Source: a virus | IMG/VR virus record: IMGVR_UViG_3300014059_000004 | Length of the DNA stretch: 64,000 nt | Direction: 5' to 3' (one strand) | In this document: piece after piece, positions 40,810-57,290 of the stretch | How positions within the stretch are numbered: the first letter of the stretch is position 1 | How the letters are laid out: every line of letters begins with the position of its first letter | Notes under the pieces: model-generated | The model's database searches: none | Told to the model about the DNA's origin: nothing | The model's input: the letters and a program-made list of their open reading frames with translations, nothing else | Translations under genes and position numbers: made by a program

Positions 40810-40834
40810 GCCCCTTGAAGCTCGCCTTCCCACA

Positions 40835-41527: not shown

Positions 41528-41587
41528 CCTCTTAACATCTTACCACTCTGGGCCCGAGCTGTGCACAGCGCTCGTGGGCCTCACGAT

Positions 41588-41854: not shown

Positions 41855-41866
41855 AGTAGGCCTACT

Positions 41867-42641: not shown

Positions 42642-42886
42642 GGGATGACCTCAAATTCTCTCGTGCATATTTCGTACAAAGCACCGTCCTTAGAGCTCAA
42701 AGCATAAGCAGTTGTTTCACCCTCAACGGGAATCATGCCCATGTACGCATACACCGGTCCTGGTGCTTCATAAAACGCTTCGTACGTCTTAGAAACGTTC
42801 CACTTATAAATCCAGTGACGAGATCCAGAAGCGTCAGCTTTCGGTCGAAGCAACGTTCCAAGAAGTAGATCATCTAGATCGATCAT
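42638..42886 (-). CDS. array paralog (trimmed)
   Basis: MIDLDDLLLGTLL. Confidence 0.45.
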   Translation of the reverse strand: MIDLDDLLLGTLLRPKADASGSRHWIYKWNVSKTYEAFYEAPGPVYAYMGMIPVEGETTAYALSSKDGALYEICTREFEVIP

Positions 42887-43131
42887 AGCTTTGATAGCAT
42901 CCTTTTGTCGACGTACACGAGGCTGCAATCAGCACGCATGATCATCATCGTCGCAGCGGTGTACGTGCCCAACGATGGATGCACCCTTCTTTGGTCATCA
43001 CGGGAGAGCTTGCAGATGAACGTGCAAATTTCATCGCTAGCTATCGTTCTGATCAGCAGACCGAATTCAGGGTGCACTTCGAAGCACGTTGTTGCTGCGA
43101 ACCGCGATGCGACAAGGTCACCTGATTTCAT
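42883..43131 (-). CDS. array paralog
   Basis: MKSGDLVA. Confidence 0.55.
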   Translation of the reverse strand: MKSGDLVASRFAATTCFEVHPEFGLLIRTIASDEICTFICKLSRDDQRRVHPSLGTYTAATMMIMRADCSLVYVDKRMLSKL

Positions 43132-43373
43132 AGCTCTTCAACGTTCTCAGCATCGGTCAAGTAGATTTCACAATCTGGCGTAAGAATGTACAGAGCCGGA
43201 GCATCATCACGGTCAACCATGTTTCCGAGGTACACGTACAGTGGTCGACCGTGAGCTGTGATCACCTGCGAGTGAATCGGATTTGTTGAGTACAACCAAT
43301 GAAATGAAGAGGTTGGGATCAACAATGATCCTATCTTCAGCTTTTTCACGCTCTTCACGGTGCATCGCTCCAC
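43128..43373 (-). CDS. array paralog
   Basis: KLKIGSLL. Confidence 0.5.
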   Translation of the reverse strand: MERCTVKSVKKLKIGSLLIPTSSFHWLYSTNPIHSQVITAHGRPLYVYLGNMVDRDDAPALYILTPDCEIYLTDAENVEEL

Positions 43374-43591
43374 AGGATCAGCATGTCTTTTGTCGTTCGA
43401 TCATAGTTGATAACGATGCCAGCTGGCTCCGGAGCAAAATCGTTTAGTTTGCGATCGTAGTCATCCCACGCCGGTCTGACAACATCACCAGGAAGCCAGA
43501 ACACGTCGCGAGCTGGAATCTCGTAAGCGTGCTCAAATTCCACGAGGTAACCGATCTGCGTCCAGCGATGTTGTATCAGTTGGGGTGACAT
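43355..43591 (-). CDS. divergent array paralog
   Basis: FWLPGDVV. Confidence 0.4.
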   Translation of the reverse strand: MSPQLIQHRWTQIGYLVEFEHAYEIPARDVFWLPGDVVRPAWDDYDRKLNDFAPEPAGIVINYDRTTKDMLILWSDAP

Positions 43592-43743
43592 GGTTCAAAG
43601 CAGTAATCAGGGAACACTAGCACTTTTGTGTCTCTAGCCCGCAGGACGATTCCGTACCATCGCGAACCAGCTTGGTCCTTCCAGGACTCTGCATCGCCGA
43701 GAAAAATAAGCAGATCGCCGACGTCAAAGGAAACATCATTCAT
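43576..43743 (-). CDS. array paralog (short, 55 aa, found by eye in a gap of the ORF track)
   Basis: MNDVSFDVGDLL...VLVFPDYCFEP. Confidence 0.4.
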   Translation of the reverse strand: MNDVSFDVGDLLIFLGDAESWKDQAGSRWYGIVLRARDTKVLVFPDYCFEPCHPN

Positions 43744-43919
43744 GCTAGCACCATGATATCATAGGCGTAGTATGTTAGCACCCCGCCGTTTGGCAGCATC
43801 ACTCGAACGATCAGATCACCCCAAGCCCCAACGCGAAGGCCGATGCAAACCATGATGGTGTCATGAGGATGATATCCAATCTTCGCCTGAACTAGATCGC
43901 CGATCTTAATCTTCTTCAC
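43740..43919 (-). CDS. array paralog (GTG start, 59 aa)
   Basis: VKKIKIGDLV...VMLPNGGVLTYYAYDIMVLA; ATGA coupling downstream. Confidence 0.4.
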   Translation of the reverse strand: MKKIKIGDLVQAKIGYHPHDTIMVCIGLRVGAWGDLIVRVMLPNGGVLTYYAYDIMVLA

Positions 43920-44128
43920 GGGAGACTCAAGTCGTGGTTGTACACGTAAATCAAGTGACCAGATGGAAGAATCACCAACGCGTAATTACCACCATGCACT
44001 CGATAGTCGTTCAAGTAAACAGCAAGTCGCTCGTTAGAGCCAAAGTTGCGAATCTTTGGATGATCAGAATCAAGCTCGCATATGATGACATTGTCTCTGT
44101 TGATCTTCACCAAAGTACCGGTTTTCAT
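43916..44128 (-). CDS. array paralog
   Basis: MKTGTLV. Confidence 0.55.
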   Translation of the reverse strand: MKTGTLVKINRDNVIICELDSDHPKIRNFGSNERLAVYLNDYRVHGGNYALVILPSGHLIYVYNHDLSLP

Positions 44129-44304
44129 AGCTTCCTCAAGTTGCTCGCGTAGTACACTGCAATCTGTCCGTTGGGAAACATGACGCGAACCAGGCAGTCG
44201 CCGTGAAGGCTGTCAAGCGTTCCCATACACACCATGGGGCTCCGAGTCTGAGACAATCGGTTTTCAAATCGCAGCAGATCACCAGTCTTGAATGATTCTT
44301 TCAT
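44125..44304 (-). CDS. array paralog (59 aa, manual)
   Basis: MKESFKTGDLL...VMFPNGQIAVYYASNLRKL. Confidence 0.45.
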   Translation of the reverse strand: MKESFKTGDLLRFENRLSQTRSPMVCMGTLDSLHGDCLVRVMFPNGQIAVYYASNLRKL

Positions 44305-44522
44305 GCGGGCACCAAGTCAGCTGCAACGATGCGTGTCAACTTCCCTGACGGAAGCAGGACCCACTTGTAATCCTCGCCGGCGATCGTCTCGCAACCTACA
44401 CACATGCAGATGAAGTTGGGTTTAACTTTGAAGAACGCAAATTTCTCAAATCCCATGGGTATCATGGGTGCTTCAATGATCGTTGTGTGCCGCGTGGTAA
44501 GCAGATCTCCCGGCAGCATCAT
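44301..44522 (-). CDS. array paralog
   Basis: MMLPGDLL. Confidence 0.55.
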   Translation of the reverse strand: MMLPGDLLTTRHTTIIEAPMIPMGFEKFAFFKVKPNFICMCVGCETIAGEDYKWVLLPSGKLTRIVAADLVPA

Positions 44523-44692
44523 AGCAGCTCTCTCAGCTCGCTTGCGTATCGCCAGGCAACTTGCCCAGACGAGCAGACAACGCAGGCAATGCTAGGGTGA
44601 ACATGGTCCGTGCCCACGTAGATCAACACTGACCTCTTTGGTATTACGTGGTTATCGTAGATCCAATAGACCAGATCCCCGGATTTCATCAT
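44519..44692 (-). CDS. array paralog (57 aa, manual)
   Basis: MMKSGDLVYW...SSGQVAWRYASELREL. Confidence 0.45.
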   Translation of the reverse strand: MMKSGDLVYWIYDNHVIPKRSVLIYVGTDHVHPSIACVVCSSGQVAWRYASELRELL

Positions 44693-44856
44693 TGCTCCGC
44701 GTGCTTCAGATCACAGACGTAGAACCAATCAATCTGCCCATTCGGTGCTATAACGTAAGCGAATGCAGAATCCGGATCACAACGACACAAGTAGATGTAC
44801 ACGGTGTGCTGGGCGGCCCAGTTAACCAAGTCACCGCTACGAAATGAATCGCTCAC
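44689..44856 (-). CDS. array paralog (GTG start, manual)
   Basis: VSDSFRSGDLV...IAPNGQIDWFYVCDLKHAEQ. Confidence 0.4.
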   Translation of the reverse strand: MSDSFRSGDLVNWAAQHTVYIYLCRCDPDSAFAYVIAPNGQIDWFYVCDLKHAEQ

Positions 44857-45101
44857 TTGACAACCTTGAACTGGTGCGGGAAAGAGACCCAGATCTCACC
44901 GCGGAACAATACGACAGCGAGGTTACAATCATCCCACGTGACCGTGCCAAGAAAAGTGCCAGCTGCTCGGCATTCTTCATCTGTGGGCTTGAAATCTTTA
45001 TACACGAGCCGCGCGCCGTCCTCATGCAGTGAAATGGTCGTCACGTACGTACTTCCATGCGATTGTAGAATCACCATGTCACCCGGAAGTGTCACTGCCA
45101 T
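44853..45101 (-). CDS. array paralog
   Basis: MAVTLPGDMV. Confidence 0.5.
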   Translation of the reverse strand: MAVTLPGDMVILQSHGSTYVTTISLHEDGARLVYKDFKPTDEECRAAGTFLGTVTWDDCNLAVVLFRGEIWVSFPHQFKVVK

Positions 45102-45141
45102 CTAACAATTGTAACCCATTTTGTGGCACCAGTGCACAGCG

Positions 45142-45360
45142 TTACAAAGGCCTTAGTCTTGATGGATGAACTTCTACCAAGACACCAGACGGAAGCAAGA
45201 TAAGAACCAAGCTTCCGTTGCCACGACCGCTAATACCAACGTACACGAAAGGTCCAGAACCGGGAACTTCGAAGCCGTGAAGACCATATTCATAGGGTGC
45301 TTTCAACGTGAGGACGTACAGATCTCTCGAGTCGCTGCAGACCAGATCGCCGATCTTCAT
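45142..45360 (-). CDS. array paralog (trimmed)
   Basis: MKIGDLVC. Confidence 0.5.
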   Translation of the reverse strand: MKIGDLVCSDSRDLYVLTLKAPYEYGLHGFEVPGSGPFVYVGISGRGNGSLVLILLPSGVLVEVHPSRLRPL

Positions 45361-45518
45361 AGCAGCTCTAGTGCACCAACGTAGTATCTGTTGACGCGTC
45401 CGCTGAACAGCAAGACCCAAGCCCAAGTCGCTCCTGACTTGAGCTGACCAAACCCTATGATGATGCACGCTTCTGGCAAATAATTTTTTCGTGGGACAAC
45501 CAAGTCACCAACTTTCAT
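45357..45518 (-). CDS. array paralog (53 aa, manual)
   Basis: MKVGDLVVPRKN...LLFSGRVNRYYVGALELL. Confidence 0.45.
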   Translation of the reverse strand: MKVGDLVVPRKNYLPEACIIIGFGQLKSGATWAWVLLFSGRVNRYYVGALELL

Positions 45519-45530
45519 AGCGACACCTCA

Positions 45531-45758
45531 TCAGATGAAAAACACGTTGTCGACGTACGTAACAACCAGCTCACCAGTTTCGCGCATCACCATGATGCGA
45601 TTGCGATGAAACTGGGTAGGCTCGATAATGAAGACACCGACGCACAGCAACACTTCATCGTCAACCAAGCACTGACCCAGGTAATAACCAGATATCGGAT
45701 TGCAGGTTGATATGAACTTGCTCTTCGAGCAGACAAGATCTCCAGGTTCGATATTCAT
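45531..45758 (-). CDS. array paralog
   Basis: MNIEPGDLV. Confidence 0.55.
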   Translation of the reverse strand: MNIEPGDLVCSKSKFISTCNPISGYYLGQCLVDDEVLLCVGVFIIEPTQFHRNRIMVMRETGELVVTYVDNVFFI

Positions 45759-46015
45759 TCAACCCACTGCAGCTCTTTAACGGAGCCGGCGTACGTAGAG
45801 ATAACACGACCGTCTGGTAGCAAGATCCACACGTACTGCAAACCGTCAACTTTGAAGCTGTTTACGTATACAGCAACGCAGAAGTTTACGGCGAAATCAT
45901 CTGCAATCTTTGATTGCCTCACTTTGAGGAAGTGATCTGCCTCGTGCGGATTCATTGAAATTCTCTTGAACGTGGGAACGACCAGAACACCAGCTTTCAT
46001 AGTGGACTCCTCCAA
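45755..46015 (-). CDS. array paralog
   Basis: MKAGVLVV. Confidence 0.5.
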   Translation of the reverse strand: MEESTMKAGVLVVPTFKRISMNPHEADHFLKVRQSKIADDFAVNFCVAVYVNSFKVDGLQYVWILLPDGRVISTYAGSVKELQWVE

Positions 46016-46185
46016 AGCGGTTGTACGTCGCTTTCGTAGAACTTTTTGATGTTCCCGTTCGACCCCATAAGAATTGCGACCTTTGCCACTTCGTACATCA
46101 CACCGGCCAAGTAAACATAGATCTCACGGTCCCATGCAAAAGAAACGGTGACAAGATCACCTGTGACAAAATTATGTTTCATCAA
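45997..46185 (-). CDS. array paralog
   Basis: NFVTGDLV. Confidence 0.55.
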   Translation of the reverse strand: MMKHNFVTGDLVTVSFAWDREIYVYLAGVMYEVAKVAILMGSNGNIKKFYESDVQPLWRSPL

Positions 46186-46402
46186 TCTTCAGATCGCTCC
46201 TTGCTACCGTTGCTACTTGCCCATGCGATGTCAGAACCAAGTACGCCCTGATGTTGCCAACGAACATCTGCGCAAGGTAGATGAAGACCACATGCCCACG
46301 CTCTGGATCCCATGCCCGGACTGAATTCCATTTGCCGTGACGATCTAGCTCAATGTACGTTGTGTACACTGCGCTCAGCAAGTCACCAGCACGAATCGTC
46401 AT
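46172..46402 (-). CDS. array paralog
   Basis: MTIRAGDLL. Confidence 0.55.
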   Translation of the reverse strand: MTIRAGDLLSAVYTTYIELDRHGKWNSVRAWDPERGHVVFIYLAQMFVGNIRAYLVLTSHGQVATVARSDLKIDET

Positions 46403-46572
46403 TGTATCTCCAGAAGCTCATCAACCCAACGCCAGCGAACATCGCCGGTCGGGCGGATGATAAGAGCAACGTGCTCGGTGTCAGACGCAGTGCAGATGAA
46501 CACGTTGATGCCCGGAACTTCATCATGGATCCAATAGACCAGATCGCCTGACTTAAACTGTTCACGCTTCAT
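46399..46572 (-). CDS. array paralog (57 aa, manual)
   Basis: MKREQFKSGDLV...RPTGDVRWRWVDELLEIQ. Confidence 0.45.
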   Translation of the reverse strand: MKREQFKSGDLVYWIHDEVPGINVFICTASDTEHVALIIRPTGDVRWRWVDELLEIQ

Positions 46573-46732
46573 GCAGCAGTTCCAGCTCGTTCAACCAATA
46601 CTCTACAGCACAACCTTCTACATTTATAACCAGAGCAAAGTGGTAAAAGTTCCCAGCTGGGACATACGAACTCACGTATATAAGCGGTTCGTTGCGATTA
46701 AATGCCCAACACACCAGATCACCAGCTTTCAT
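46562..46732 (-). CDS. array paralog (56 aa, manual)
   Basis: MKAGDLVCWAFN...YWLNELELL. Confidence 0.45.
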   Translation of the reverse strand: MKAGDLVCWAFNRNEPLIYVSSYVPAGNFYHFALVINVEGCAVEYWLNELELLHEA

Positions 46733-46772
46733 GCTAGCACAAAATCTCCGTCAGTGATGAGCAGATCTCCAG

Positions 46773-46955
46773 TCACCATGCTCTCTTCATGTCATCGTAA
46801 TCAAACCGTGAAACAGTGCCATCAGGACACATGAACCAACCGTGAGTCCAATTGTTAGAGCTGCACAGGAAGATGAACATGCTCTTGTGATTCCACTTGG
46901 AAATTTTCGGTATGAAGTACGGACAGTATGCCGCATCGCCAGAATAAAATTTCAT
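46773..46955 (-). CDS. array paralog
   Basis: MKFYSGDAA. Confidence 0.5.
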   Translation of the reverse strand: MKFYSGDAAYCPYFIPKISKWNHKSMFIFLCSSNNWTHGWFMCPDGTVSRFDYDDMKRAW

Positions 46956-47167
46956 GTTACGAGCCTCAATTCCGCAGTGTGAGCCGCTGCAAACGTTCCA
47001 TCGGGAAGAAGGACGATGGTGAGGTAATCAAGCGGCCCTGGGCAAGTCCCGCAGCAGATGAAGGGACCAATACCTTCGAAGTGACGAACGTCACCGTTAT
47101 TTGGATCAGCTGCATTCCACACGACAATGTCTTTGAAGCGAGAGGTTAGAAGGTCACCAGTTCTCAT
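46952..47167 (-). CDS. array paralog
   Basis: MRTGDLL. Confidence 0.55.
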   Translation of the reverse strand: MRTGDLLTSRFKDIVVWNAADPNNGDVRHFEGIGPFICCGTCPGPLDYLTIVLLPDGTFAAAHTAELRLVT

Positions 47168-47370
47168 TTGATCACCTTAAGCTCTGAAGCTCTCGTGTAC
47201 ATGATCTTGCCGTTTGGAAGAAGGATGATTGTGAGTTGACCGCCGATGTCACCAAGGCAGATGAACGGTCCACGGCCAGTGAGCATGCGGCCGCCCTGAC
47301 ACAGCTTATCATCCATCTCAAAGACGAACGTGTCCTTCCACGCGCCACAGACAAGATCACCGGTCTTCAT
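47164..47370 (-). CDS. array paralog
   Basis: MKTGDLVC. Confidence 0.55.
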   Translation of the reverse strand: MKTGDLVCGAWKDTFVFEMDDKLCQGGRMLTGRGPFICLGDIGGQLTIILLPNGKIMYTRASELKVIK

Positions 47371-47576
47371 CGTGACACCGCTTCGAATTCATCTGTTATG
47401 ATGTGAACGACACGGCCATCAGGTGACAATGCCAGCCCACGTGCGGGTGACAGCAGCAAGAAGTAACCGAACGAGCGCCTGTACCACTGGCTACCGTGGG
47501 TTGACATGATCGTGGTCGTGAAAGTATCTCCCATCGGTAGAAGAAGATCACCGTGGATAAATGGAAAGCGGCTCAT
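47367..47576 (-). CDS. array paralog
   Basis: FIHGDLLL. Confidence 0.5.
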   Translation of the reverse strand: MSRFPFIHGDLLLPMGDTFTTTIMSTHGSQWYRRSFGYFLLLSPARGLALSPDGRVVHIITDEFEAVSR

Positions 47577-47788
47577 CGGGAGATAACCTTCACAAAATCA
47601 TCAATCTTGATTATCACGATCCGTTCTCCAAGAAGCCCATACACGTACTCTTGATCTCGTACCGAGTAACCAATCACGAGGAGAGGGTCAACTATCTCCG
47701 TACCCCACGTGCCCCTACGAACATCGTAAACAGGGGCGTACTTCCCTTCGTAATTCCCGGCCAGAAGATCACCGATCACTGGAGACAA
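47573..47788 (-). CDS. array paralog
   Basis: MSPVIGDLL. Confidence 0.55.
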   Translation of the reverse strand: MSPVIGDLLAGNYEGKYAPVYDVRRGTWGTEIVDPLLVIGYSVRDQEYVYGLLGERIVIIKIDDFVKVISR

Positions 47789-48020
47789 CCTTCAAATCAG
47801 AAGCTAGAACACGGGAAACGCGGCCAGAAGGAAACATCACCCAGCACAGCGAGACACCCCGGACGTTGCAGACACCAAGGTAGATGAGCGGAAAATCACC
47901 AGCTACATCGACCAGGCGACCCGAGAACTTGCCAGGCTGCACTTCAGCATACTCAACCACGTAGGTGGCGATGAAGCCTTCTTTGCGCCGGATTCTAAGA
48001 ACGTCTCCAAGCGTCATCAT
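47769..48020 (-). CDS. array paralog
   Basis: MMTLGDVL. Confidence 0.5.
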   Translation of the reverse strand: MMTLGDVLRIRRKEGFIATYVVEYAEVQPGKFSGRLVDVAGDFPLIYLGVCNVRGVSLCWVMFPSGRVSRVLASDLKVVSSDR

Positions 48021-48220
48021 AGGGGTGACACCTCTCCAGAAGAAACCACGAGGATCTTATCACCAGCAAGGACGTACACGTAATGTTCAGCCCAAATTTC
48101 ATGGTAACCCAAGAAGACCATGGGACCCAAGCGCTCCACGAGCCACTTCTCATGCGATGGGCCAGCATACTGGAACGTTGGATACTTCGACCTAAGAAGG
48201 TCACCGCAGTTAAAAGCCAT
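48017..48220 (-). CDS. array paralog (trimmed)
   Basis: MAFNCGDLL. Confidence 0.5.
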   Translation of the reverse strand: MAFNCGDLLRSKYPTFQYAGPSHEKWLVERLGPMVFLGYHEIWAEHYVYVLAGDKILVVSSGEVSPL

Positions 48221-48447
48221 CAGAGTGGTCGCCATCGGTGGGGGTAAGTGATCAAAATGCGGGACCGGTGAAGAACAATGGTGCAATCGACATCATCGAT
48301 CTTTAGGGTGCCAACGGCGACCCCGGCCGCAGCATCGTCTTCACCAGTGGGGTAAAACATGCGGCAGCGAAATGGTGCGGTGCTGACAACTGTCGGGAAG
48401 ACATCGTCGAAAGAATCCAACCGAACCAAATCACCGGGGGAGAACAT
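48220..48447 (-). CDS. array paralog
   Basis: MFSPGDLV. Confidence 0.55.
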   Translation of the reverse strand: MFSPGDLVRLDSFDDVFPTVVSTAPFRCRMFYPTGEDDAAAGVAVGTLKIDDVDCTIVLHRSRILITYPHRWRPL

Positions 48448-48450
48448 GCC

Positions 48451-48588
48451 TCACCTCGTTCTTCCAAAGGTAGATGAAGCACCCGTGATTGTGAGCTGAT
48501 CGTACATGCGGGAGACAAGGATGAAGATGTACCCCGCTGGGTAATCCAACACGGGGCGGGAGAGAACCAGCAAGTCTCCAGCTCTCAT
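48451..48588 (-). CDS. array paralog (45 aa, manual, possibly truncated)
   Basis: MRAGDLLVLSRP. Confidence 0.35.
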   Translation of the reverse strand: MRAGDLLVLSRPVLDYPAGYIFILVSRMYDQLTITGASSTFGRTR

Positions 48589-48592
48589 CTGA

Positions 48593-48898
48593 TCACCACG
48601 AAGTCACTATCATAGATGGCAACGAGCTCTCCGCAATAGAGAACGTAGCTGTAGTTCGGATTCCATGGATGCCGTGAGACGTAGGTGACCATGAAGTTGC
48701 GAGGCATATGCACACGTCCGGTTCGCCACGCAGGTTACAGATGAACGTGTACAGATGATTTTCACAGCGTCCATCCCCAGCACCCCACTTCGCGAAGTAG
48801 CTATTTTCATCGAATCCTGCGAGCTTTGAGAAACGCAACCCTTTTGCGCTCTGCGTTGTCATCAGAAGATCACCTGGAGACCACGTGTAAGTGATCAA
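48593..48898 (-). CDS. array paralog
   Basis: TWSPGDLL. Confidence 0.5.
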   Translation of the reverse strand: MITYTWSPGDLLMTTQSAKGLRFSKLAGFDENSYFAKWGAGDGRCENHLYTFICNLRGEPDVCICLATSWSPTSHGIHGIRTTATFSIAESSLPSMIVTSW

Positions 48899-49131
48899 AC
48901 TTTCACCATGTTGATGACTCTCGTCATTATGACTTCGTTCGCCGAGCTCAAGTACGTGCCGATGCTTCCGAAGTCGCCGTTGACGTTGACTGGGCCGACG
49001 TACATGTACATCGCGTTCGAACGAAGCAACTTATCGCCGAACAGGATGTCTTTTCCATCGCGGGTCATGACTATGACGCTGCCGTACGTGCAACCGCTTT
49101 CAGATTCTAGCTTGAACAACTCACCAATCAT
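48895..49131 (-). CDS. array paralog (trimmed)
   Basis: MIGELF; ATGA coupling. Confidence 0.45.
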   Translation of the reverse strand: MIGELFKLESESGCTYGSVIVMTRDGKDILFGDKLLRSNAMYMYVGPVNVNGDFGSIGTYLSSANEVIMTRVINMVKV

Positions 49132-49391
49132 AGGCTCACCAACGTTCCGTACTTGCAGTAGATAATCTTCCCATCGGGTGTCAAGTAAGCAGCACGCACG
49201 GTGCAGTTGGTCGCCCGTGCTTCTCCAACGTATACGTATGGGCCCTGGGTGACAAGCTGCTCGCCCAAAAGACACCATACGTACTCAACTTGAGTCCTCA
49301 ACGAGTCTGTTACTTTGGTGTAACGGTGAAGCGCCCAAGTCCAGTGACCCAAGATGCTAGGATCAGCAATGAACAGATCGCCTGTTTTCAT
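49128..49391 (-). CDS. array paralog (trimmed)
   Basis: MKTGDLF. Confidence 0.5.
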   Translation of the reverse strand: MKTGDLFIADPSILGHWTWALHRYTKVTDSLRTQVEYVWCLLGEQLVTQGPYVYVGEARATNCTVRAAYLTPDGKIIYCKYGTLVSL

Positions 49392-49603
49392 AGGTGTTCG
49401 AACGCGTGAGACGCTGCATACCTGATCTGACCATCGCGGCGCAAGTACATCGCAAGATTTTGACCCCACTTCGTTATGAAGATGAAGACTTCGCCCGTAT
49501 TAACAAAATCTGAAGTGAAGAAATGACCGTTGATGTCGACGTACGACATCGTCTTTGACCACTTGCACTTCACCAAGTCACCAGTCTTGAACTCTGTGTT
49601 CAT
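49388..49603 (-). CDS. array paralog
   Basis: EFKTGDLV. Confidence 0.55.
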   Translation of the reverse strand: MNTEFKTGDLVKCKWSKTMSYVDINGHFFTSDFVNTGEVFIFITKWGQNLAMYLRRDGQIRYAASHAFEHL

Positions 49604-49830
49604 AGTGGTTCGAAGTTTCCTTTGAGTGATATTACAATGGAACTGGTAACGTTGACAAAGTAGTAGCTATAGCTCTTGTCATAGTCACCCAAGTACATTA
49701 GAAGTGTGGCTCTATCAACCATTTGTCCCATCGTACCAAGACCATGACTTGTTTTCACGAACGTGATAGCAAAGTCAAATGGCAACGATCGTCTCAAGCA
49801 AACGAGCTGTCCGACAGTCTGCGCCTTCAT
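49600..49830 (-). CDS. array paralog
   Basis: MKAQTVGQLV. Confidence 0.5.
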   Translation of the reverse strand: MKAQTVGQLVCLRRSLPFDFAITFVKTSHGLGTMGQMVDRATLLMYLGDYDKSYSYYFVNVTSSIVISLKGNFEPL

Positions 49831-49873
49831 GGTTCAATCTTTACGAAGGCATATTCGCGACACGCACGAACCT

Positions 49874-50062
49874 TCAAATCAACGGTTGACAGAAAGTAAG
49901 AAAGACGCCCATTTTAACGTGTGGAACTTTGCTCAAGTATACGTGCAGTTGAAACGCAGACGCAATTGTACCGTTCCAGACCCAAAAGCCCCTATCGTCG
50001 TATTGATACACGTAGACCCCATGCGAACCCTTGGCTACCACAAGATCGCCGCTCTTCATCAC
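49874..50062 (-). CDS. array paralog
   Basis: MMKSGDLVV. Confidence 0.55.
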   Translation of the reverse strand: MMKSGDLVVAKGSHGVYVYQYDDRGFWVWNGTIASAFQLHVYLSKVPHVKMGVFLTFCQPLI

Positions 50063-50277
50063 CGCACCGGTGTTACGTCAAAGATATCGCAAACAATTAT
50101 TTTCCCCGTCGAGCAGTGCAAGAAGTACGTCAACGTGTCGCTGTTCACAACACCCACGTAGATCAGAAGATCTCTTACTGGAATTCGTTCTCCATCGTTA
50201 AACCAGCCCTCATCTTCAACCCAAATTTGAGCGCGAACATGCTCACTGCGTGCTCTAGCAAGATCGCCCGCGCGCAT
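50059..50277 (-). CDS. array paralog
   Basis: MRAGDLA. Confidence 0.5.
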   Translation of the reverse strand: MRAGDLARARSEHVRAQIWVEDEGWFNDGERIPVRDLLIYVGVVNSDTLTYFLHCSTGKIIVCDIFDVTPVR

Positions 50278-50513
50278 AATATCACCTGCATCCCGTCAAC
50301 TTCGACAAAGACTATTTGGCACCGCGGGATGCAGAAGAAGCTACCGATCACTGAATCGTCTGCTTTTCCCAAGTACATGCACTGTTCATCGGAATACAAC
50401 ATGTATGACTTCAACCCTTTCGATGCGTCGTGCATCCACCACTTGCCCCCTTCTGCATAGAACGTTCTGGGTCCATAGCGTGATCGTGTTCTCACCAAAT
50501 CACCGGTGCACAT
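50175..50513 (-). CDS. array paralog (trimmed; 3' third overlaps neighbour in another frame)
   Basis: MCTGDLV. Confidence 0.4.
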   Translation of the reverse strand: MCTGDLVRTRSRYGPRTFYAEGGKWWMHDASKGLKSYMLYSDEQCMYLGKADDSVIGSFFCIPRCQIVFVEVDGMQVILCARAILLEHAVSMFALKFGLKMRAGLTMENEFQ

Positions 50514-50520
50514 GCCTTGA

Positions 50521-50649
50521 TCAGACGACATGAAACTCATGAACAAGACCGCGGCCGCTGTGAAAACGTGACGCCTTTTGCGCTGGATCATCACCAATGA
50601 AGTACAAAAAGTTGCTGTACGTTGACGTTAGCAGATCGCCGACTTTCAT
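50521..50649 (-). CDS. array paralog, short (42 aa, manual)
   Basis: MKVGDLLTSTYSNFLYFIGDD. Confidence 0.35.
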   Translation of the reverse strand: MKVGDLLTSTYSNFLYFIGDDPAQKASRFHSGRGLVHEFHVV

Positions 50650-50867
50650 AGTGTTTCAAGCTCGTGCATCGCAGCCCAGCCAACCTCACCCCATGGGAAC
50701 ATGAATATAAAACCTGGCGTTCCACCAACGTCTGTAAACGTACCCAAGTACAATAGGAAGAAGTATCGACCGCTCAACATCCGTGCGCCGGTCAAAATAC
50801 CATCGTTGAATCGACAGTACATGATGTCGTCGTACTTCGACCTAAGCAGATCACCAGGGCTAAACAT
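50646..50867 (-). CDS. array paralog (trimmed)
   Basis: MFSPGDLL. Confidence 0.5.
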   Translation of the reverse strand: MFSPGDLLRSKYDDIMYCRFNDGILTGARMLSGRYFFLLYLGTFTDVGGTPGFIFMFPWGEVGWAAMHELETL

Positions 50868-51082
50868 GCTCTCAAGCTCTCCATCGGAATCCGGACAACA
50901 GAACCATCCGGCTTCATGATCCACCCGCAGGGGACAACAGTTCCCTTCGAGGTGCCCACGAGCTCGCGGGACAACCAGATGCAAGGTCCAGATGGCCACT
51001 TCCCAGAAGCTCTAGGGCGGTTGTAGACATCTACTTCAACCCAGTACATCCCCACAATGCGGCACAAGTCACCGGTCAGCAT
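50792..51082 (-). CDS. array paralog (trimmed; tail overlaps next member)
   Basis: MLTGDLC. Confidence 0.45.
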   Translation of the reverse strand: MLTGDLCRIVGMYWVEVDVYNRPRASGKWPSGPCIWLSRELVGTSKGTVVPCGWIMKPDGSVVRIPMESLRACLALVICLGRSTTTSCTVDSTMVF

Positions 51083-51450
51083 CTCTCTCCCCTTATGGTA
51101 AACTACAGCACCGCAGAAGTGCACTGCTGGGGGAAGTGCTTCTGACTTGACCCCTTCATCCCCGAATGGCTCTTTGGAGGGCTTCCGCCGCCCGAGTCAC
51201 AGATGCCCTCAGGTGGCAATTCCTCACGGGAGTACTGCTGTGCAGTTTCCTTGGGAACCCCGGCGAAATTATCGTCTATGAGGATGTGGGTCATCGCGGT
51301 GCAGCTCTGTGAGGTTGTCGGTTGTCACGTAGCAGAGAAGACAGATGGGAAGACACTTTCCTCACAGCGACGCACGAGGGGGACTTTTCTCGTGGGAATT
51401 CCTCACAGCGATCACGATTTCAGGGTAGCTGGGAATGGCACTAACGGGTT

Positions 51451-51473
51451 CATCGCGGTGATCAATTTCTCAC
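51451..51473. repeat. left copy of 23-bp perfect inverted repeat (CATCGCGGTGATCAATTTCTCAC)
   Basis: Exact reverse complement found at 51744..51766. Confidence 0.7.
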
Positions 51474-51715
51474 CCAATTTTTTCAGAGTGCTCGAAGAGG
51501 TAGAGGATGTGACTCTCTGTATCTGGACCACTGAGTACCCATACCTCTGGTTGACCGATCTTGCTGGAGACCAAGAATGTCCACGGTGATGTCGATAGGA
51601 GGATGTAGATGCTCGGAGCGCTTGTGTCGTACCAGACGTCTCCCGGCTCGAGCTGGACCGCCGCTCGATGGATACCATTTTCATCACCGCGCATCGCAGC
51701 GCTACTTGCCTTCAT
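51470..51715 (-). CDS. possible divergent array member lying between the 23-bp inverted repeats
   Basis: VQLEPGDVWYD; weak. Confidence 0.3.
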   Translation of the reverse strand: MKASSAAMRGDENGIHRAAVQLEPGDVWYDTSAPSIYILLSTSPWTFLVSSKIGQPEVWVLSGPDTESHILYLFEHSEKIG

Positions 51716-51743
51716 CTTGGTTCTTATGGGTTGTGTGTCTCAC

Positions 51744-51766
51744 GTGAGAAATTGATCACCGCGATG
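51744..51766. repeat. right copy of 23-bp perfect inverted repeat
   Basis: GTGAGAAATTGATCACCGCGATG = reverse complement of 51451..51473; adjacent 10-bp palindrome CTCACGTGAG. Confidence 0.7.
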
Positions 51767-51896
51767 AATTTGGCTCTCGCAAAAGTCTCCGGGCAGCTCT
51801 TGACCGCCGCTCGAGGTCCATTCTTGAGCCTCATATTTCACTTGGAGTACTTCACCATGTAAGTCAACCGTGCCTCAGTCGTCACGCGGAACTCCT

Positions 51897-52100
51897 TCAG
51901 CCCCCATCGTGGTAGAAGATGATCGTGATGTTCTTGGGTACCGTGCCAGGGGTGATCGACCACGAGGCTTCCGGCTCGCTCTTGTAGATGAGAAGATCTG
52001 GGAGCGCGGTCTTGAAGACGATGATGTCTCCCGGCACCATGCGTGCCACAGGTACTTGTGGCAGAAGATCGATGAACGGCCAGCTGCCCCGCCCCTTCAT
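51897..52100 (-). CDS. array paralog (trimmed)
   Basis: VARMVPGDIIV. Confidence 0.45.
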   Translation of the reverse strand: MKGRGSWPFIDLLPQVPVARMVPGDIIVFKTALPDLLIYKSEPEASWSITPGTVPKNITIIFYHDGG

Positions 52101-52330
52101 GGGTTCACCCTGAGAATGTCGGGTGTGAGCGGCGTGCGCTCGTAGGCCCTCGTCGAGCGCCACAAATTCAGCGTGCTCAATTCAAGAGACCAGAAGTAGA
52201 CAAATTCACCAGTTACGTGGACTGAGACTACCAAGTCGTAGCGCGGGCGGTTGTCGCTGACAGGGTCACCTTCCCAAACGAAGACATCTCCAGGTCTTAC
52301 TTCTCCGTGCTTCAAGTTCTTCAGGATCAT
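52097..52330 (-). CDS. array paralog
   Basis: EVRPGDVFV. Confidence 0.5.
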   Translation of the reverse strand: MILKNLKHGEVRPGDVFVWEGDPVSDNRPRYDLVVSVHVTGEFVYFWSLELSTLNLWRSTRAYERTPLTPDILRVNP

Positions 52331-52578
52331 GATACCTTGACAACAACATCTTTGAATGTTGAACCTCGCATCGCGGACCAGAAGTGACCATTGTGAGCTC
52401 GCCAGAGGTGCACCTCAACGACGCCCCATTCATTGATGACGTTTGCTATGACCAGCTCCAAGTAAGGCCCAACATCTTCGTGCATCTCTGAATCGCAAGA
52501 CGTCCAGATGACCAGGTCACCCGGTTGAAGAGCGTCGATCTCCGCTTCTGTGAGGTACTTCGGATTCATCAGCTTCAT
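52327..52578 (-). CDS. array paralog
   Basis: ALQPGDLVI. Confidence 0.5.
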   Translation of the reverse strand: MKLMNPKYLTEAEIDALQPGDLVIWTSCDSEMHEDVGPYLELVIANVINEWGVVEVHLWRAHNGHFWSAMRGSTFKDVVVKVS

Positions 52579-52905
52579 TCAGTTAACTCGAACGTACTCA
52601 TTGATGTCACCTTTATTCCACTCCCTAGACACGTGCTTCCCGGAGAGCCTACCGTACGTAGAAGAATAGATGATAAACGTCACAGTGCCACGTTGAGAAC
52701 CAGAACCGTCCCAGGGGCGTGCAAAGTTGCAGATCACAAGACCCATCGTATGATACTGCACCACCCCGGGTGCAGCGGTCGAGACCGGCCCAGAGAAGAA
52801 AAGAAGATCGCCCGGGACCAGGTCTTTTGCAACGTCGCGCCAATTCATCAGCCCGGCCTTTTTCAGCCGAGCTCGATCAGTTTCGTTGATAATGGTGGCA
52901 AACAT
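52579..52905 (-). CDS. array paralog
   Basis: DLVPGDLLF. Confidence 0.5.
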   Translation of the reverse strand: MFATIINETDRARLKKAGLMNWRDVAKDLVPGDLLFFSGPVSTAAPGVVQYHTMGLVICNFARPWDGSGSQRGTVTFIIYSSTYGRLSGKHVSREWNKGDINEYVRVN

Positions 52906-52915
52906 GTGCTCAACC

Positions 52916-53857
52916 TCAAAAAGGTACTCCCAGTAACAAATTTAACAGGAGCGAGAAATCTGAATCATTCCTGTCAGCGTTCAAGTTCACAGTGAACGGT
53001 GTCATCCCGTCGGGGGATATGCTGATCATTGACATTGTGACGATATCGTGACCCGCGCCGTGCATCTCATTCCGGACGGTTGCAACGACGAGCAAGTACT
53101 CGTTGAGCATCGAGCCCGGGACAGAAAAGAGCAAGTCGCCAGGCTCCAGCGTTCCGAACGTCCACCTTTTGCGGGCCACTGGTAACTTCACCTTCCGCGG
53201 TCGACCACGCTTCCGCTTAGCAGAGACCTCTGCGCGCTTCTCCTTGGCAGCACGCTCTGCAGCGATGACATCTTTCGGGCGGTTCTTGGAACCAGGCGGG
53301 CGACCGCGCTTCCCCTTGCGGACAGGCTTGGGCTCACCCTCCGGCGGCAGCGGTCGAACTCGCGGTCGGCCACGCTTCTTCTTGCCGATGGTCTCCTTGG
53401 CGATGGCCAGGCAGTACACGTCACCCTTCTTCGGGCCGGTGATGTAGTTGCCCAGGGCATGCTGCTTCAGGTCTTCGTTCCAGAGACCCACCACACCAGT
53501 CTCGTCATCGATGCTCTCCACCGTGTACGTCAGGGTATCGAGCCACGGACGCGCTGCCAGGACAGAAGCATAGCGCTCGATGACGATCTTGTCACCGATG
53601 TTAAAGAGCGGGAGGGGAGCACCGTCCACCACCACAAGCGCAGGCTTCAGGTGAGAGATGTCTGGCTTCCGGGCATTGCGGTCCGCCCACGCAGCGTCCG
53701 GATCGCGGCCAGCAAGACCCCAGTCTTCATCAGCGTCCGCAGGGAGAGCCGGCGGGGGAAGAGCAGATGCCGAAGCAACGAGTGCATTGACCTGGTCGGT
53801 GAGAGGGTTCGTCTCGTCCATAGGTTTATTGTACCACGTTTCTTCGAGGGTTTGCAC
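52916..53857 (-). CDS. two-domain array-family protein with three AT-hook motifs in the linker
   Basis: LFNIGDKIVI... and TLEPGDLLF... domains; KRGRPRV, GKRGRPPGSKNRPK, RKRGRPRKV (GRP cores). Confidence 0.55.
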   Translation of the reverse strand: MQTLEETWYNKPMDETNPLTDQVNALVASASALPPPALPADADEDWGLAGRDPDAAWADRNARKPDISHLKPALVVVDGAPLPLFNIGDKIVIERYASVLAARPWLDTLTYTVESIDDETGVVGLWNEDLKQHALGNYITGPKKGDVYCLAIAKETIGKKKRGRPRVRPLPPEGEPKPVRKGKRGRPPGSKNRPKDVIAAERAAKEKRAEVSAKRKRGRPRKVKLPVARKRWTFGTLEPGDLLFSVPGSMLNEYLLVVATVRNEMHGAGHDIVTMSMISISPDGMTPFTVNLNADRNDSDFSLLLNLLLGVPF

Positions 53858-53929
53858 AGAATATTCGAATTAAATTGAGAGTGGTTTTCCACCCTCGAAT
53901 TGTGTGAATTCTCTGTGAGGCTCACGGGC

Positions 53930-54986: not shown

Positions 54987-55062
54987 CTGTTGAATTGTGC
55001 AAACCCGTGGATTGACGCATGCGCGTCACCCGGTGGAGTGATGAGCTGGGCTCATCAACCTG

Positions 55063-55144
55063 TGGAGCAACCCTGAGTCGAACAGGGACCGCGCATGGCG
55101 GCTCGGGTGGTTTAAGCCCCAGACTCTCCTGAGATTATTGCCCC
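55063..55144 (-). other. tRNA-like element: canonical T-arm plus acceptor 3' strand (GGTCCCTGTTCGACTCAGGGTTGCTCCA), followed by 7-bp hairpin; 5' half does not fold into a canonical D/anticodon arm
   Basis: T-stem CCCTG/CAGGG, T-loop TTCGACT, 7-nt acceptor complement GGGGCAA 82 nt upstream; downstream hairpin GATGAGC-TGG-GCTCATC at 55040..55056. Confidence 0.35.
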
Positions 55145-55870
55145 TTGCCCGAGAGATCACGGGTCACTCATGGTTTCATTGTAACCGGTTTAGTGTATAT
55201 TATACACATGGTGATCGAGAAGTTTGTTGAAGCAAAAGTTCAACATCTACGCATGAAGTGTGATCAATGCAACGTTGAATTTGTTCGCAACAAAAACGTA
55301 AGAATGCTCATGTCGCGGCCTCGACAATATTGTTCATCTGGCTGCGCTTCTGGTGCTCTACGCAAAGGCGGTATTGCTGATGCTTCGCGAAAGAAGACAT
55401 GCACTGAGAAGTATGGATCATCTTACTTTATTATCACACCTCAAATTCTCGCGCAGAACGCAGAGAGATCTCACACGCCTGAAGCAGAAGCCCGCCGGCG
55501 GGCCGCCGTCAGAGAATCTTTGAAGAGCACAACAGTTCAGCTAAGACGTGGGCTGTTTTTGACACGATCTAAAGCTGAGATCAAGTTCTTTGATGCCCTG
55601 GCCGGGGCCTTGGGTTATAAACTAGAGACGCAAGTATACATCAACGGTTGGTGGATCGATGCTTGGTCACCTGTTCATGATGTTTGGCTTCAATTCGACG
55701 GCGTATACTGGCATTCAAAACCGGGCGCTGTTCTTCGTGATCGAGCTCAAGATCTGTGGTTTGCAGATCAAGGAAAAAGATTGATCAGAATCACTGATGT
55801 AGAAGCACGAAACGCCAGGTCCGTTGAAGACCTGGCGTTGAAGATTACTAATCCAGTGGGTAGTTCATAA
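55145..55870 (+). CDS. endonuclease-like protein: N-terminal Cys cluster plus C-terminal DUF559/Vsr-like PD-(D/E)xK-type domain
   Basis: CDQCNVEF...CSSGC; C-term WIDAWSPVHDVWLQFDGVYWH resembles E-x-D-G-x-x-W-H restriction-endonuclease-like motif. Confidence 0.45.
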   Translation: MPERSRVTHGFIVTGLVYIIHMVIEKFVEAKVQHLRMKCDQCNVEFVRNKNVRMLMSRPRQYCSSGCASGALRKGGIADASRKKTCTEKYGSSYFIITPQILAQNAERSHTPEAEARRRAAVRESLKSTTVQLRRGLFLTRSKAEIKFFDALAGALGYKLETQVYINGWWIDAWSPVHDVWLQFDGVYWHSKPGAVLRDRAQDLWFADQGKRLIRITDVEARNARSVEDLALKITNPVGSS

Positions 55871-56801: not shown

Positions 56802-56881
56802 GTGGGCCTCACGAGTAAAACGATTTAATGGGGAGGTAGGGTAACACCTTCCGACCATGGGAAGGTCACGGTGAGGCCCAC
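56802..56881. other. structured intergenic element: 11-bp outer stem GTGGGCCTCAC...GTGAGGCCCAC enclosing 7-bp hairpin ACCTTCC-gaccatg-GGAAGGT
   Basis: Inverted complementarity read directly; contains the 30-bp motif also present inverted at 61931..61962. Confidence 0.45.
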
Positions 56882-56939
56882 GTGTGACCTGACGGCCGGT
56901 GTGGTAAGGTGGCCGCAGGATGCTGACGTGGGAAGGGGT

Positions 56940-56975
56940 GTGCAAAGGCAACCGCGATGGTGGTACTATAAGATC
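56940..56975 (+). promoter_or_regulatory. conserved promoter-like motif GTGCAAAG-N16-TACTAT-AAGATC immediately before ATG
   Basis: One of four instances with identical spacing (also 57545, 62035, 63877). Confidence 0.55.
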
Positions 56976-57290
56976 ATGGCACGAATCAAGACGAACGGCA
57001 CGGCGCAGATGATTCTCTCGTACCTGAAGGCTTCTCACGAGTGGGGACCCTTCACGGAGCGCCAGATCCTGGATCAGGTTCGACCCAAGGGTTGTTCACC
57101 GCGGTGGGGGAACTCTTACTTCCTCGTGGGCAAGGGCAACGCTCACGAGATTTCACTCATCAAGCGAGGTCTCATCGACGTGGTGGCAGAATCCACGCGC
57201 GGTGCAAGGATGTACGCGATCTCAGAGCTCGGGCGTAAAGTTCTCCAGGCGTCTCTGATGATCCCTGCGCTACCGCGCTCCGCAGTGTAA
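56976..57290 (+). CDS. small winged-helix-like protein (MARIKTNGT...), paralog of gene starting at 63913
   Basis: ATG directly after promoter motif; N-terminus shared with 63913 ORF (MARINQND). Confidence 0.5.
   Translation: MARIKTNGTAQMILSYLKASHEWGPFTERQILDQVRPKGCSPRWGNSYFLVGKGNAHEISLIKRGLIDVVAESTRGARMYAISELGRKVLQASLMIPALPRSAV

What the first reader, a model, noticed from the sequence alone, without database searches (positions are those of the whole stretch)
51100..51870. Repeat-rich low-coding island inside the array with 23-bp perfect inverted repeats flanking a 270-bp segment
Between members at 51082 and 51897 the regular ORF tiling breaks down. The region has at least three direct copies of TTCCTCAC(A/G)GCGA-like sequence (51222, 51358, 51396) and a 10-bp palindrome CTCACGTGAG. 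A perfect 23-bp inverted repeat pair (51451-51473 / 51744-51766) brackets about 270 bp that contain one weak family ORF. The arrangement could be an invertible promoter/gene switch, a miniature TIR element (MITE-like), or an iteron-type control region that splits the array into sub-operons.
Basis: seen in the sequence. Interest (0 to 1): 0.55.

Follow-up and report, generated by a model that had tools for sequence, protein, structure and literature searches.

The report
Conserved control spacer in phage gene array
The inverted repeat is real and is shared by a dozen related uncultured huge phages, but it belongs to a fixed, highly conserved non-coding spacer inside a giant array of small duplicated genes, and nothing suggests that it flips or moves.

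Summary
The perfect inverted repeat is 25 nt (51449-51473 / 51744-51768), 270 nt apart, and unique in the window. It brackets one real family gene.

About twelve related metagenomic phage lineages carry the same arms at the same place. They hold 1-3 tandem paralogs between the arms (270-716 nt), always in the same orientation.

The left arm is the start of a non-coding block of about 180 nt (51291-51473). Its most conserved parts reach 97-99% pairwise identity, against 60-90% around them. The block also holds partial copies of the arm, two perfect 13-mers and a conserved hairpin.

The right arm is less constrained, with 0-5 mismatches across lineages, none compensated in the left arm.

I found no target-site duplication, no other copies, no recombinase among 50 ORFs scanned, no Rfam match and no sigma-70-like promoter. 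The MITE reading is rejected and the invertible-switch reading has no support. An iteron/operator-like control region at a sub-array boundary fits best, but that is inference. A long-range RNA duplex or a functionless relic of an inverted micro-duplication remain live rivals.

Interest is moderate to low: the element is real and conserved, and its function is unproven.

The parts
51449..51473 (.). Left arm (LA) of the 25-nt perfect inverted repeat. On the minus strand it reads GTGAGAAATTGATCACCGCGATGAA. It contains the TGA stop codon of the cassette gene (51472-51470) and is the first module of the conserved non-coding block.
   Evidence: It is unchanged in most of the roughly 12 related lineages. 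L008/L010/L023 have 2 mismatches and L022 has 1. Mean pairwise identity is 97.6%.
51744..51768 (.). Right arm (RA). On the minus strand it reads TTCATCGCGGTGATCAATTTCTCAC. It lies in the 3' part of a 36-aa truncated family ORF, 28 nt upstream of the cassette gene's ATG.
   Evidence: RA is perfect in the window, L007, L008, L011-13, L017, L018 and L023. Position 9 takes C, A or T in L019/20 and L024. There are 4-5 mismatches in L016/L021, L022 and L003. Pairwise identity is 88.4%.
51738..51749 (.). 12-nt palindrome TCTCACGTGAGA. It is formed by the 6 nt before RA on the plus strand (TCTCAC, identical to the last 6 nt of LA) together with the first 6 nt of RA. Removing 51474-51743 would give a perfect 50-nt palindrome.
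   Evidence: Read directly. The palindrome is kept in the window, L007, L015 and L017-20. It has one mismatch in L008/L011 and is absent in L003/L022.
51470..51715 (-). Cassette gene (81 aa), a true family member. It is a chimera of two tandem paralogs, 'A' (N-terminal part) and 'C' (C-terminal part), that are separate genes in relatives. The crossover lies within 51575-51605, in the shared ILLSTSPWTFL coding stretch.
   Evidence: Alignment with L002/L003. ORF maps of relatives show 1-3 genes between the arms. It aligns with the array family. The AlphaFold2 model is a small beta-rich domain with pLDDT 69.6.
51478..51483 (.). T6 run directly after LA (an A run in the gene's last codons). Its length varies among relatives (T5, T6, T7), which moves the stop codon of the cassette gene.
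51351..51448 (-). Core of the conserved non-coding block. It holds two perfect 13-mers (TTCCTCACAGCGA at 51358-51370 and 51399-51411 on the plus strand). These flank a conserved 6-bp-stem hairpin (CACGAG 51373-51378 / CTCGTG 51389-51394). It also holds unit R3 (51392-51415), which resembles the arm.
   Evidence: 25-nt windows here reach 99.2% pairwise identity. No reading frame shows an excess of synonymous change, and the long plus-strand ORF has stop codons in four lineages. There is no Rfam match and no significant RNA fold.
51330..51350 (.). Spacer of fixed length but variable sequence, lying between the two conserved parts of the block.
   Evidence: Pairwise identity is 59.8%, with no indels.
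51291..51329 (-). Second conserved part of the block. It contains an exact 11-nt copy of the arm core (51291-51301, TCATCGCGGTG), a CCTCACAG motif on the minus strand and a tandem GACAACC repeat. It ends at the ATG of ORF63.
   Evidence: (I7, D7)
51103..51294 (-). ORF63, which is not family-like and of doubtful coding status. Its N-terminal 20 codons are conserved. The C-terminus and stop position differ among relatives, and L007 carries a frameshift. It contains unit R1 (51213-51237).
   Evidence: No Pfam or PHROG hit.
51724..51834 (-). 36-aa ORF (MRLKNGPRAAVKSCPETFARAKFIAVINFSRETHNP). It is a truncated family member, with an N-terminus homologous to paralog A, and it carries RA. It stays open with the same length in all relatives and is tandemly duplicated in L024.
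51838..52100 (-). Family member just upstream of the island. In this window a 1-nt deletion near 51900 splits it into two ORFs. It is intact (86-87 aa) in L003 and L023.

Best explanation
The island is a conserved non-coding control or boundary region inside a roughly 21-kb array of about 75 small paralogous genes, all on one strand, in an uncultured huge phage. It lies between a syntenic upstream part of the array and a rapidly shuffled downstream part.

The block (51291-51473) is built from copies of one unit of about 25 nt. The best copy, the left arm, is repeated in inverted orientation 270 nt upstream as the right arm. Together the two arms bracket a small cassette of 1-3 paralogs, whose number changes by unequal homologous recombination inside the genes.

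My proposed mechanism is inference. The arms and their degenerate copies are binding sites for a sequence-specific DNA-binding protein. The left arm would be the primary site and the right arm an auxiliary, dispensable one. The core of each arm is a 17-nt quasi-palindrome, TTCATCGC-N-GTGATCAA. Binding would control expression of the cassette and of the downstream sub-array.

Shown: the anatomy, the conservation, the fixed orientation, the variable cassette and the absence of mobility signs.

Inferred: protein binding and a regulatory role.
For: The 25-nt perfect repeat is unique in the window.

The same arms occur at the same position in about 12 related lineages from independent metagenomes.

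The left arm and the adjacent hairpin region are the most conserved sequence of the locus, at 97.6% and 99.2% pairwise identity. Neighbouring 25-nt windows range from about 60% to 94%.

No reading frame in the block shows coding-type substitution, and the long plus-strand ORF is broken by stop codons in 4 lineages.

The block holds further arm-like copies: R3 at 51392-51415 and an exact 11-mer at 51291-51301. The best local score has P = 0.02 against shuffles. The aberrant right arm of L003 resembles R3, which links these repeats to the arms.

The two arms are constrained unequally. The right arm decays in several lineages while the left arm stays. This fits a primary site plus an auxiliary site.

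The one position that takes all four bases, position 9, is the exact dyad centre of the 17-nt quasi-palindrome, and it also varies in the left arm.

The distance between the arms varies from 270 to 716 nt without loss of the arms.

Apart from three short intergenic gaps (72-114 nt, near 53.9, 54.4 and 55.0 kb) and the 313-aa non-family gene at 52916-53857, this is the one long stretch of the array without a family gene.

Genes upstream of the island keep their order in relatives, while those downstream are block-shuffled.
Against: No binding protein has been identified.

No sigma-70-like promoter lies in or next to the block, and the block is not AT-rich, so neither promoter nor origin features are shown.

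Only two full copies of the unit exist, and the degenerate copies are only modestly significant (P = 0.02).

No k-mer of the block recurs elsewhere in the window beyond chance, so it is not a general promoter motif.

The right arm's conservation (88%) is not higher than some neighbouring coding windows (90-94%). Selection on the right arm itself is therefore not demonstrated.

The arms contain CGCGGTGAT, the family's own 'RGD' N-terminal codons (I8/D2). The repeat may therefore simply derive from paralog sequence.
Confidence: 0.35

Rival explanations
1. Relic without a function of its own. The right arm is a leftover of an old small inverted duplication or template switch that copied 25-31 nt of the left-arm region (itself derived from a paralog's 5' 'RGD' coding motif) to a site upstream. 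Only the left arm and its block are functional. The inverted repeat as such does nothing.
For: The right arm decays freely in L003, L016/L021 and L022 (4-5 mismatches), with no compensating change in the left arm.

Its conservation (88%) lies within the range of nearby windows.

The arms share CGCGGTGAT(G/C)AA with the N-terminal codons of paralog A (I8/D2).

The 6 nt next to the right arm continue the palindrome (TCTCAC|GTGAGA). A fold-back or template-switch junction would leave this signature.

The array is visibly prone to recombination: chimeric genes, duplications and block shuffling.
Against: The right arm is identical over all 25 nt in at least three deep haplotype groups, whose adjacent 25-50 nt differ by 25-35%.

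The repeat has persisted in nearly every lineage sampled.

Among otherwise intact right arms, only the central position varies.
Confidence: 0.25
2. Long-range RNA duplex. On the minus-strand polycistronic transcript the two arms pair into a 25-bp helix that encloses the cassette mRNA. This could create an RNase III-type processing site or clamp the cassette message, setting its stability or translation apart from the rest of the array.
For: Both arms lie on the transcribed strand and bracket the cassette coding block tightly: the right arm sits 28 nt before the ATG and the left arm overlaps the stop codon.

The 361-nt RNA folds with the arms paired, at z = -4.6 against shuffles.

A perfect helix of 20 bp or more is a classical RNase III substrate (established knowledge, not tested here).
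Against: There is no covariation. Across 7 distinct arm-pair haplotypes, 0 of 25 pairs show a compensatory change, 10 pairs are broken in some lineage and only 1 change is a wobble.

The central pair is intact in only one haplotype.

The two arms are constrained unequally, which a pairing function does not predict.

The rest of the block shows no significant structure, and there is no Rfam match.
Confidence: 0.15
3. Invertible DNA switch. A site-specific recombinase flips 51474-51743. This would switch the cassette gene off and swap the C-terminal tails of ORFs that read through the arms.
For: The architecture (a 25-bp perfect inverted repeat around about 270 bp) matches known invertons.

After inversion the 36-aa ORF would read on in frame for 68 aa (derived).

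Some short contigs end inside an arm.
Against: Every assembly examined has the same orientation.

The contig ends inside the arms coincide with the polymorphic arm positions 9 and 13, so strain variation explains them.

No serine or tyrosine recombinase was found among 50 window ORFs.

The interior is all coding sequence, with no promoter-like site.

The homopolymer next to the left arm varies (T5-T7), so the post-inversion reading frame is not conserved.

The arms diverge from each other in several lineages.
Confidence: 0.05
4. Miniature inverted-repeat transposable element (MITE), or another TIR-bounded mobile element.
For: Terminal inverted repeats bound a short segment.
Against: There is no target-site duplication outside the arms.

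The window holds only this pair. Only one locus was found in IMG/VR, and none in the metagenome or genome collections.

The insertion site is the same in all relatives.

The interior consists of ordinary array paralogs in variable number.

No transposase was found.
Confidence: 0.01

Closest known systems
Operator or iteron clusters of phage and plasmid control regions (for example several related 17-25-bp sites, some acting at a distance by DNA looping)
   Same: Several copies of one unit of about 25 nt, in both orientations, sit within about 550 bp. The unit has a quasi-palindromic core with an unconstrained central base. There is one strongly conserved site plus weaker or dispensable ones. 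They lie in the main non-coding gap of a long operon-like array.
   Different: No cognate protein, promoter or AT-rich origin region has been identified. Only two full copies exist. The unit is not found anywhere else in the 64-kb window or in the 81.6-kb related contig.
PeSL regulatory cassettes of T4-type phage hyperplastic regions (Arbiol et al. 2010, PMC2839356; Comeau et al. 2014, PMC4122927)
   Same: Conserved non-coding sequence lies among small, non-essential, rapidly shuffled genes. Recombination crossovers fall inside the conserved sequence: L010 is a recombinant with its junction in the block.
   Different: PeSLs are a strong sigma-70-like promoter plus a terminator stem-loop, and they occur as many direct copies. 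Here there is one locus, no promoter-like or terminator-like match, and the repeat is inverted.
Invertons (fimS, Hin/Gin segments, Bacteroides invertible promoters)
   Same: A perfect inverted repeat of 20-30 bp flanks a few hundred bp.
   Different: No second orientation was seen, no recombinase was found, and there is no promoter inside. The arms are allowed to diverge from each other in several lineages.
RNase III long-range processing stems (for example the stems flanking 16S rRNA, or phage T7 early mRNA sites)
   Same: A helix of 20 bp or more can form on the transcribed strand and would enclose a defined coding unit.
   Different: Pairing is not maintained by compensatory change. Cleavage was not tested.

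Membership tests
Invertible DNA switch (inverton) | Inverted repeats flanking the segment | tested here: met
   25-nt perfect repeat with 270 nt between the arms
Invertible DNA switch (inverton) | Both orientations present in the population | tested here: not met
   About 14 assemblies from about 12 lineages are all collinear. Raw reads were not available, so a rare minority orientation is not excluded.
Invertible DNA switch (inverton) | Cognate site-specific recombinase encoded nearby | tested here: not met
   No recombinase domain in 50 window ORFs. The rest of the genome was not seen.
Invertible DNA switch (inverton) | A promoter, or alternative gene ends, inside the segment | tested here: not met
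   The interior is filled by 1-3 family genes. There is no promoter-like site on the minus strand. The reading frame that inversion would create is not conserved.
MITE / TIR transposon | Target-site duplication outside the terminal repeats | tested here: not met
   The flanks are ...AACGGG | arm ... arm | TTTGGC. No duplication in any lineage.
MITE / TIR transposon | Multiple dispersed copies | tested here: not met
   Two arms only in the window. One locus in IMG/VR. None in the metagenome or genome collections.
MITE / TIR transposon | Presence/absence polymorphism at the insertion site | tested here: not met
   The arms are at the same place in all relatives. Only the number of internal paralogs differs.
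Iteron / operator cluster | Three or more related units in a non-coding region | tested here: inconclusive
   Two perfect 25-mers, two perfect 13-mers, one exact 11-mer and R1/R3 partial copies. The best score has P = 0.02 against shuffles.
Iteron / operator cluster | Conservation above neighbouring sequence without a coding signature | tested here: met
   97.6-99.2% identity against about 60-94% in neighbouring windows. No reading frame has a synonymous excess, and there are stop codons in the plus-strand ORF.
Iteron / operator cluster | Cognate DNA-binding protein, and an adjacent promoter or origin | not testable with these tools
   No sigma-70-like promoter. The host and the phage transcription machinery are unknown.
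Structured RNA / RNase III stem | Pairing maintained by compensatory substitutions | tested here: not met
   0 of 25 pairs compensated. 10 pairs are broken in some lineage.
Structured RNA / RNase III stem | Membership of a described RNA family | tested here: not met
   No Rfam match at E <= 1 in 50800-52200.
PeSL-type regulatory cassette | Sigma-70-like promoter plus terminator stem-loop, in many direct copies | tested here: not met
   Promoter and terminator scans give chance-level results. No recurrence of block k-mers in the window.

The most novel reading that the evidence does not exclude
The two arms are the halves of a split 50-bp palindrome that acts as a dedicated module for one paralog cassette in huge-phage gene arrays. 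It could work as a long-range RNA duplex that releases a separately regulated cassette message. Alternatively, rare recombination between the arms could recode the small ORFs that read through them. Either would be a previously undescribed way of regulating part of a giant tandem gene array.
Probability: 0.12. Interest if true: 0.65.

Novelty: new member of a known kind. Interest (0 to 1): 0.35.

Why it matters
Huge phages carry long arrays of tiny duplicated genes, and nobody knows how these arrays are expressed or diversified. This spacer is the only long, strongly conserved non-coding sequence inside such an array here. It marks the border between a stable part and a rapidly shuffled part. 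If it is a control region, it offers a concrete handle on how such arrays are regulated: a 25-mer for pull-downs and a defined site for transcript mapping. If it is only a recombination scar, it still documents how paralog arrays rearrange through chimeric genes, tandem duplications and inverted micro-duplications.

Tried and rejected
- Nucleotide search of 50000-53000 against GenBank phages: no match.
- Pfam and PHROG scans of island ORFs and family members: nothing.
- Rfam scan: nothing.
- RNA folds of the conserved block on either strand: not better than shuffles.
- The 128-aa plus-strand ORF (51203-51589), which gene callers predict on several contigs: rejected as a gene. It has stop codons in L003, L008, L016 and L021, and the homopolymer indel shifts its frame.
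- ORF63: its coding status remains unresolved, with a synonymous/non-synonymous pattern close to neutral.
- Arm or block k-mers elsewhere in the window as a general promoter motif: none beyond chance. An apparent third site near 55260 was dropped because GATC-containing 8-mers are enriched about fivefold window-wide. I take this to come from the family's Gly-Asp codons (my inference).
- Resemblance of the 12-nt palindrome to chromosomal parS (13 of 16): about 0.5 such matches are expected by chance (my own estimate, not a tool result), and the palindrome is not conserved in relatives, so it was dropped.
- Contig ends inside the arms as a hint of inversion: explained by arm polymorphisms at positions 9 and 13.
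- Exact-pattern scans of the metagenome and genome collections with the arm, and of the metagenome collection with the hairpin block: no hits.
- More distant huge phages (L004-L006): they lack the island altogether.
- Fold search of the cassette protein model: no significant match, only weak SH3-like hints.
- Literature search for the sample accessions: nothing found.

Full report
**Context**

The window looks like part of an uncultured huge phage. It encodes a GroEL-type chaperonin, a major-vault-protein-like protein, AAA ATPases, DNA repair enzymes and a GIY-YIG endonuclease. The vault-like protein matches only the 462-735-kb 'uncultured phage' records LR756500-LR756503.

From about 55.0 kb down to 34.1 kb the minus strand carries roughly 75 tightly packed ORFs of 50-110 aa. 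They share an N-terminal G-D-L type motif and match no Pfam or PHROG family. A Logan contig (SRR1145916, 92 kb) is identical to the window except for 2 bases over the 20-kb stretch compared.

**The observation**

The inverted repeat is perfect over 25 nt (51449-51473 and 51744-51768), with 270 nt between the arms. Allowing 3 mismatches, it has only these two copies in the window and none in shuffled sequence. It is the only perfect long inverted repeat in the 64 kb.

The direct repeats are two perfect 13-mers at 51358 and 51399, plus a partial copy at 51213-51227. The palindrome is 12 nt long, at 51738-51749. The description is therefore correct and slightly understated.

**What lies between and around the arms**

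The ORF between the arms (51470-51715) aligns with the array family. It gives a small beta-rich model with pLDDT 69.6, which has no significant PDB match.

Related contigs were found through the arm sequence, a neighbouring 313-aa gene and two protein searches. They hold one, two or three tandem paralogs (A, B, C) between the same two arms, with inner lengths of 270, 329, 499, 691 and 716 nt. The window's gene is an A/C chimera. Its crossover lies in a sequence shared by the two paralogs, at 51575-51605.

Upstream, the right arm lies in a 36-aa truncated family ORF that stays open in all relatives. The next member upstream is frameshifted in this window only.

Downstream of the left arm there is no family gene for about 370 nt. 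ORF63 (51103-51294) is poorly conserved at its C-terminus and shows no clear coding signature. The 128-aa plus-strand ORF that gene callers predict there carries stop codons in four lineages. The 'low-coding island' is real.

**Conservation**

In an alignment of 11 lineages, two stretches are almost invariant. One is the left arm. The other runs from the first 13-mer through a 6-bp-stem hairpin to the second 13-mer. Between that stretch and a second conserved part, which ends at the ATG of ORF63, lies a spacer of about 20 nt. The spacer keeps its length while its sequence varies.

Pairwise identity in 25-nt windows is as follows:
- left arm: 97.6%
- hairpin window: 99.2%
- variable spacer: 59.8%
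- other windows in and just beyond the block: 83-92%

The right arm scores 88.4%, against 65% and 71% for its immediate flanks, but some nearby coding windows reach 90-94%. The left arm and its block are therefore clearly constrained. The right arm is less so.

The block contains further partial copies of the arm unit: R3 at 51392-51415 and an exact 11-mer at 51291-51301. The best score has P = 0.02 against shuffles. The divergent right arm of L003 resembles R3.

**Tests of the proposed readings**

*Mobile element.* There is no target-site duplication. No other copies exist in the window, in the 81.6-kb related IMG/VR contig, or in the metagenome and genome collections. The position is the same in every relative. 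This reading is rejected.

*Invertible switch.* All assemblies are collinear. Contig ends that fall inside the arms coincide with polymorphic arm positions. No recombinase was found among 50 ORFs. There is no promoter-like site inside the segment. This reading is unsupported, although reads were not available.

*RNA duplex.* The arms pair in the predicted fold, at z = -4.6. Across seven distinct arm-pair haplotypes, however, no pair shows a compensatory change and ten pairs are simply broken in some lineage. There is no Rfam match, and the block itself has no significant fold.

*Control region.* This reading is compatible with the conservation pattern, the repeated units and the unequal constraint on the two arms. 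It also fits the variable arm-to-arm distance and position 9. That position is the dyad centre of the 17-nt quasi-palindrome TTCATCGC-N-GTGATCAA. It is the one site that takes all four bases, and it also varies in the left arm. No promoter consensus, binding protein or AT-rich region is shown, however, and the unit occurs nowhere else in the window.

**Origin**

The arms contain CGCGGTGAT, the codons of the family's own N-terminal R-G-D motif (I8/D2). On the plus strand the six bases before the right arm repeat the last six of the left arm. Removing 51474-51743 would therefore leave a perfect 50-nt palindrome.

This points to an old inverted micro-duplication or fold-back event within the array. 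It was present in the common ancestor of all sampled lineages. The cassette between the arms has since expanded and contracted by unequal crossing-over. L010 is a recombinant whose junction lies in the conserved block, and L024 has duplicated the ORF that carries the right arm.

**Verdict**

The finding is a real, conserved and apparently fixed feature. I rate the readings as follows:
- a DNA-level control or boundary region with repeated binding units: 0.35
- a functional left-arm block with a functionless right-arm relic: 0.25
- a long-range RNA duplex: 0.15
- an invertible switch: 0.05
- a MITE: 0.01
- the remainder is left for something not considered here

It matches no described RNA or regulatory family by sequence, but its general kind is familiar. 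Interest is moderate to low unless experiments show processing, inversion or a dedicated regulator.

Noticed in passing
window 34095-54986 (minus strand): About 75 tandem, mostly translationally coupled ORFs of 50-110 aa form one family. They share an N-terminal G-D-L motif, a hydrophobic strand, and a C-terminal 'PDG..I....E(L/F)..L' motif. There are no Pfam or PHROG hits. The model of one member is a small beta-rich domain with only weak SH3-like similarities. In more distant huge phages (L004-L006) the same interval, between the 313-aa gene homolog and the vault-like gene, holds only about 3 kb of such genes. The array is therefore a lineage-specific expansion.
   Followed up: partly
window 37900-51100 compared with L002/L003 (IMGVR_UViG_3300033121_002167): Downstream of the island the array is block-shuffled between two phages that are 91-99% identical within blocks. 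Blocks are missing, moved or reordered. Genes upstream of the island keep their order.
   Followed up: partly
window 51838-52100 (minus strand): A 1-nt deletion in a G run near 51900 splits a family member that is intact (86-87 aa) in L003 and L023. The Logan contig for this phage carries the same state. This is either a real pseudogene or a shared homopolymer error.
   Followed up: yes
window 51478-51483: The homopolymer next to the left arm is T5, T6 or T7 in different lineages. This shifts the stop codon of the cassette gene. In L003 the gene reads through the arm for 17 more codons.
   Followed up: partly
L024 2199-2360 (Logan SRR12404957): The small ORF that carries the right arm is tandemly duplicated (two right-arm copies 137 nt apart). 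The two copies differ only at arm position 9 (A and T).
   Followed up: no
window 31335-34079 (minus strand): A 914-aa protein has major-vault-protein shoulder and repeat domains and an SPFH/Band-7 region. Its only matches in the GenBank phage collection are huge uncultured phages of 462-735 kb (LR756500-LR756503).
   Followed up: partly
window 56823-56895 and 61890-61962: A 73-nt inverted repeat at 75% identity lies about 5 kb apart. I read it, without checking, as two paralogous genes in opposite orientation. The ORF at 56871-57290 has a weak EarA-like winged-helix hit below the Pfam cut-off, which makes it a possible DNA-binding protein near the array.
   Followed up: no
window 55062-55144 (minus strand): A tRNA-Leu (anticodon TAA) sits directly upstream of the first array gene on the same strand. 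A perfect TATAAT hexamer lies about 40 nt upstream of the tRNA on the minus strand, near 55180-55195 (position estimated, not computed).
   Followed up: no
window 53858-53929 (minus strand): The 72-nt gap upstream of the 313-aa gene contains CCTCACAGAG and GAGAATTCACAC. These resemble motifs of the island block (CCTCACAGAG; GAGGAATTCCCAC). CCTCACAG occurs 7 times in the window against 2 expected, and 5 of those lie between 51.3 and 53.9 kb.
   Followed up: partly
window 9413-10096 (plus strand): A GIY-YIG/NUMOD3 homing-endonuclease-like ORF lies among DNA-metabolism genes.
   Followed up: no
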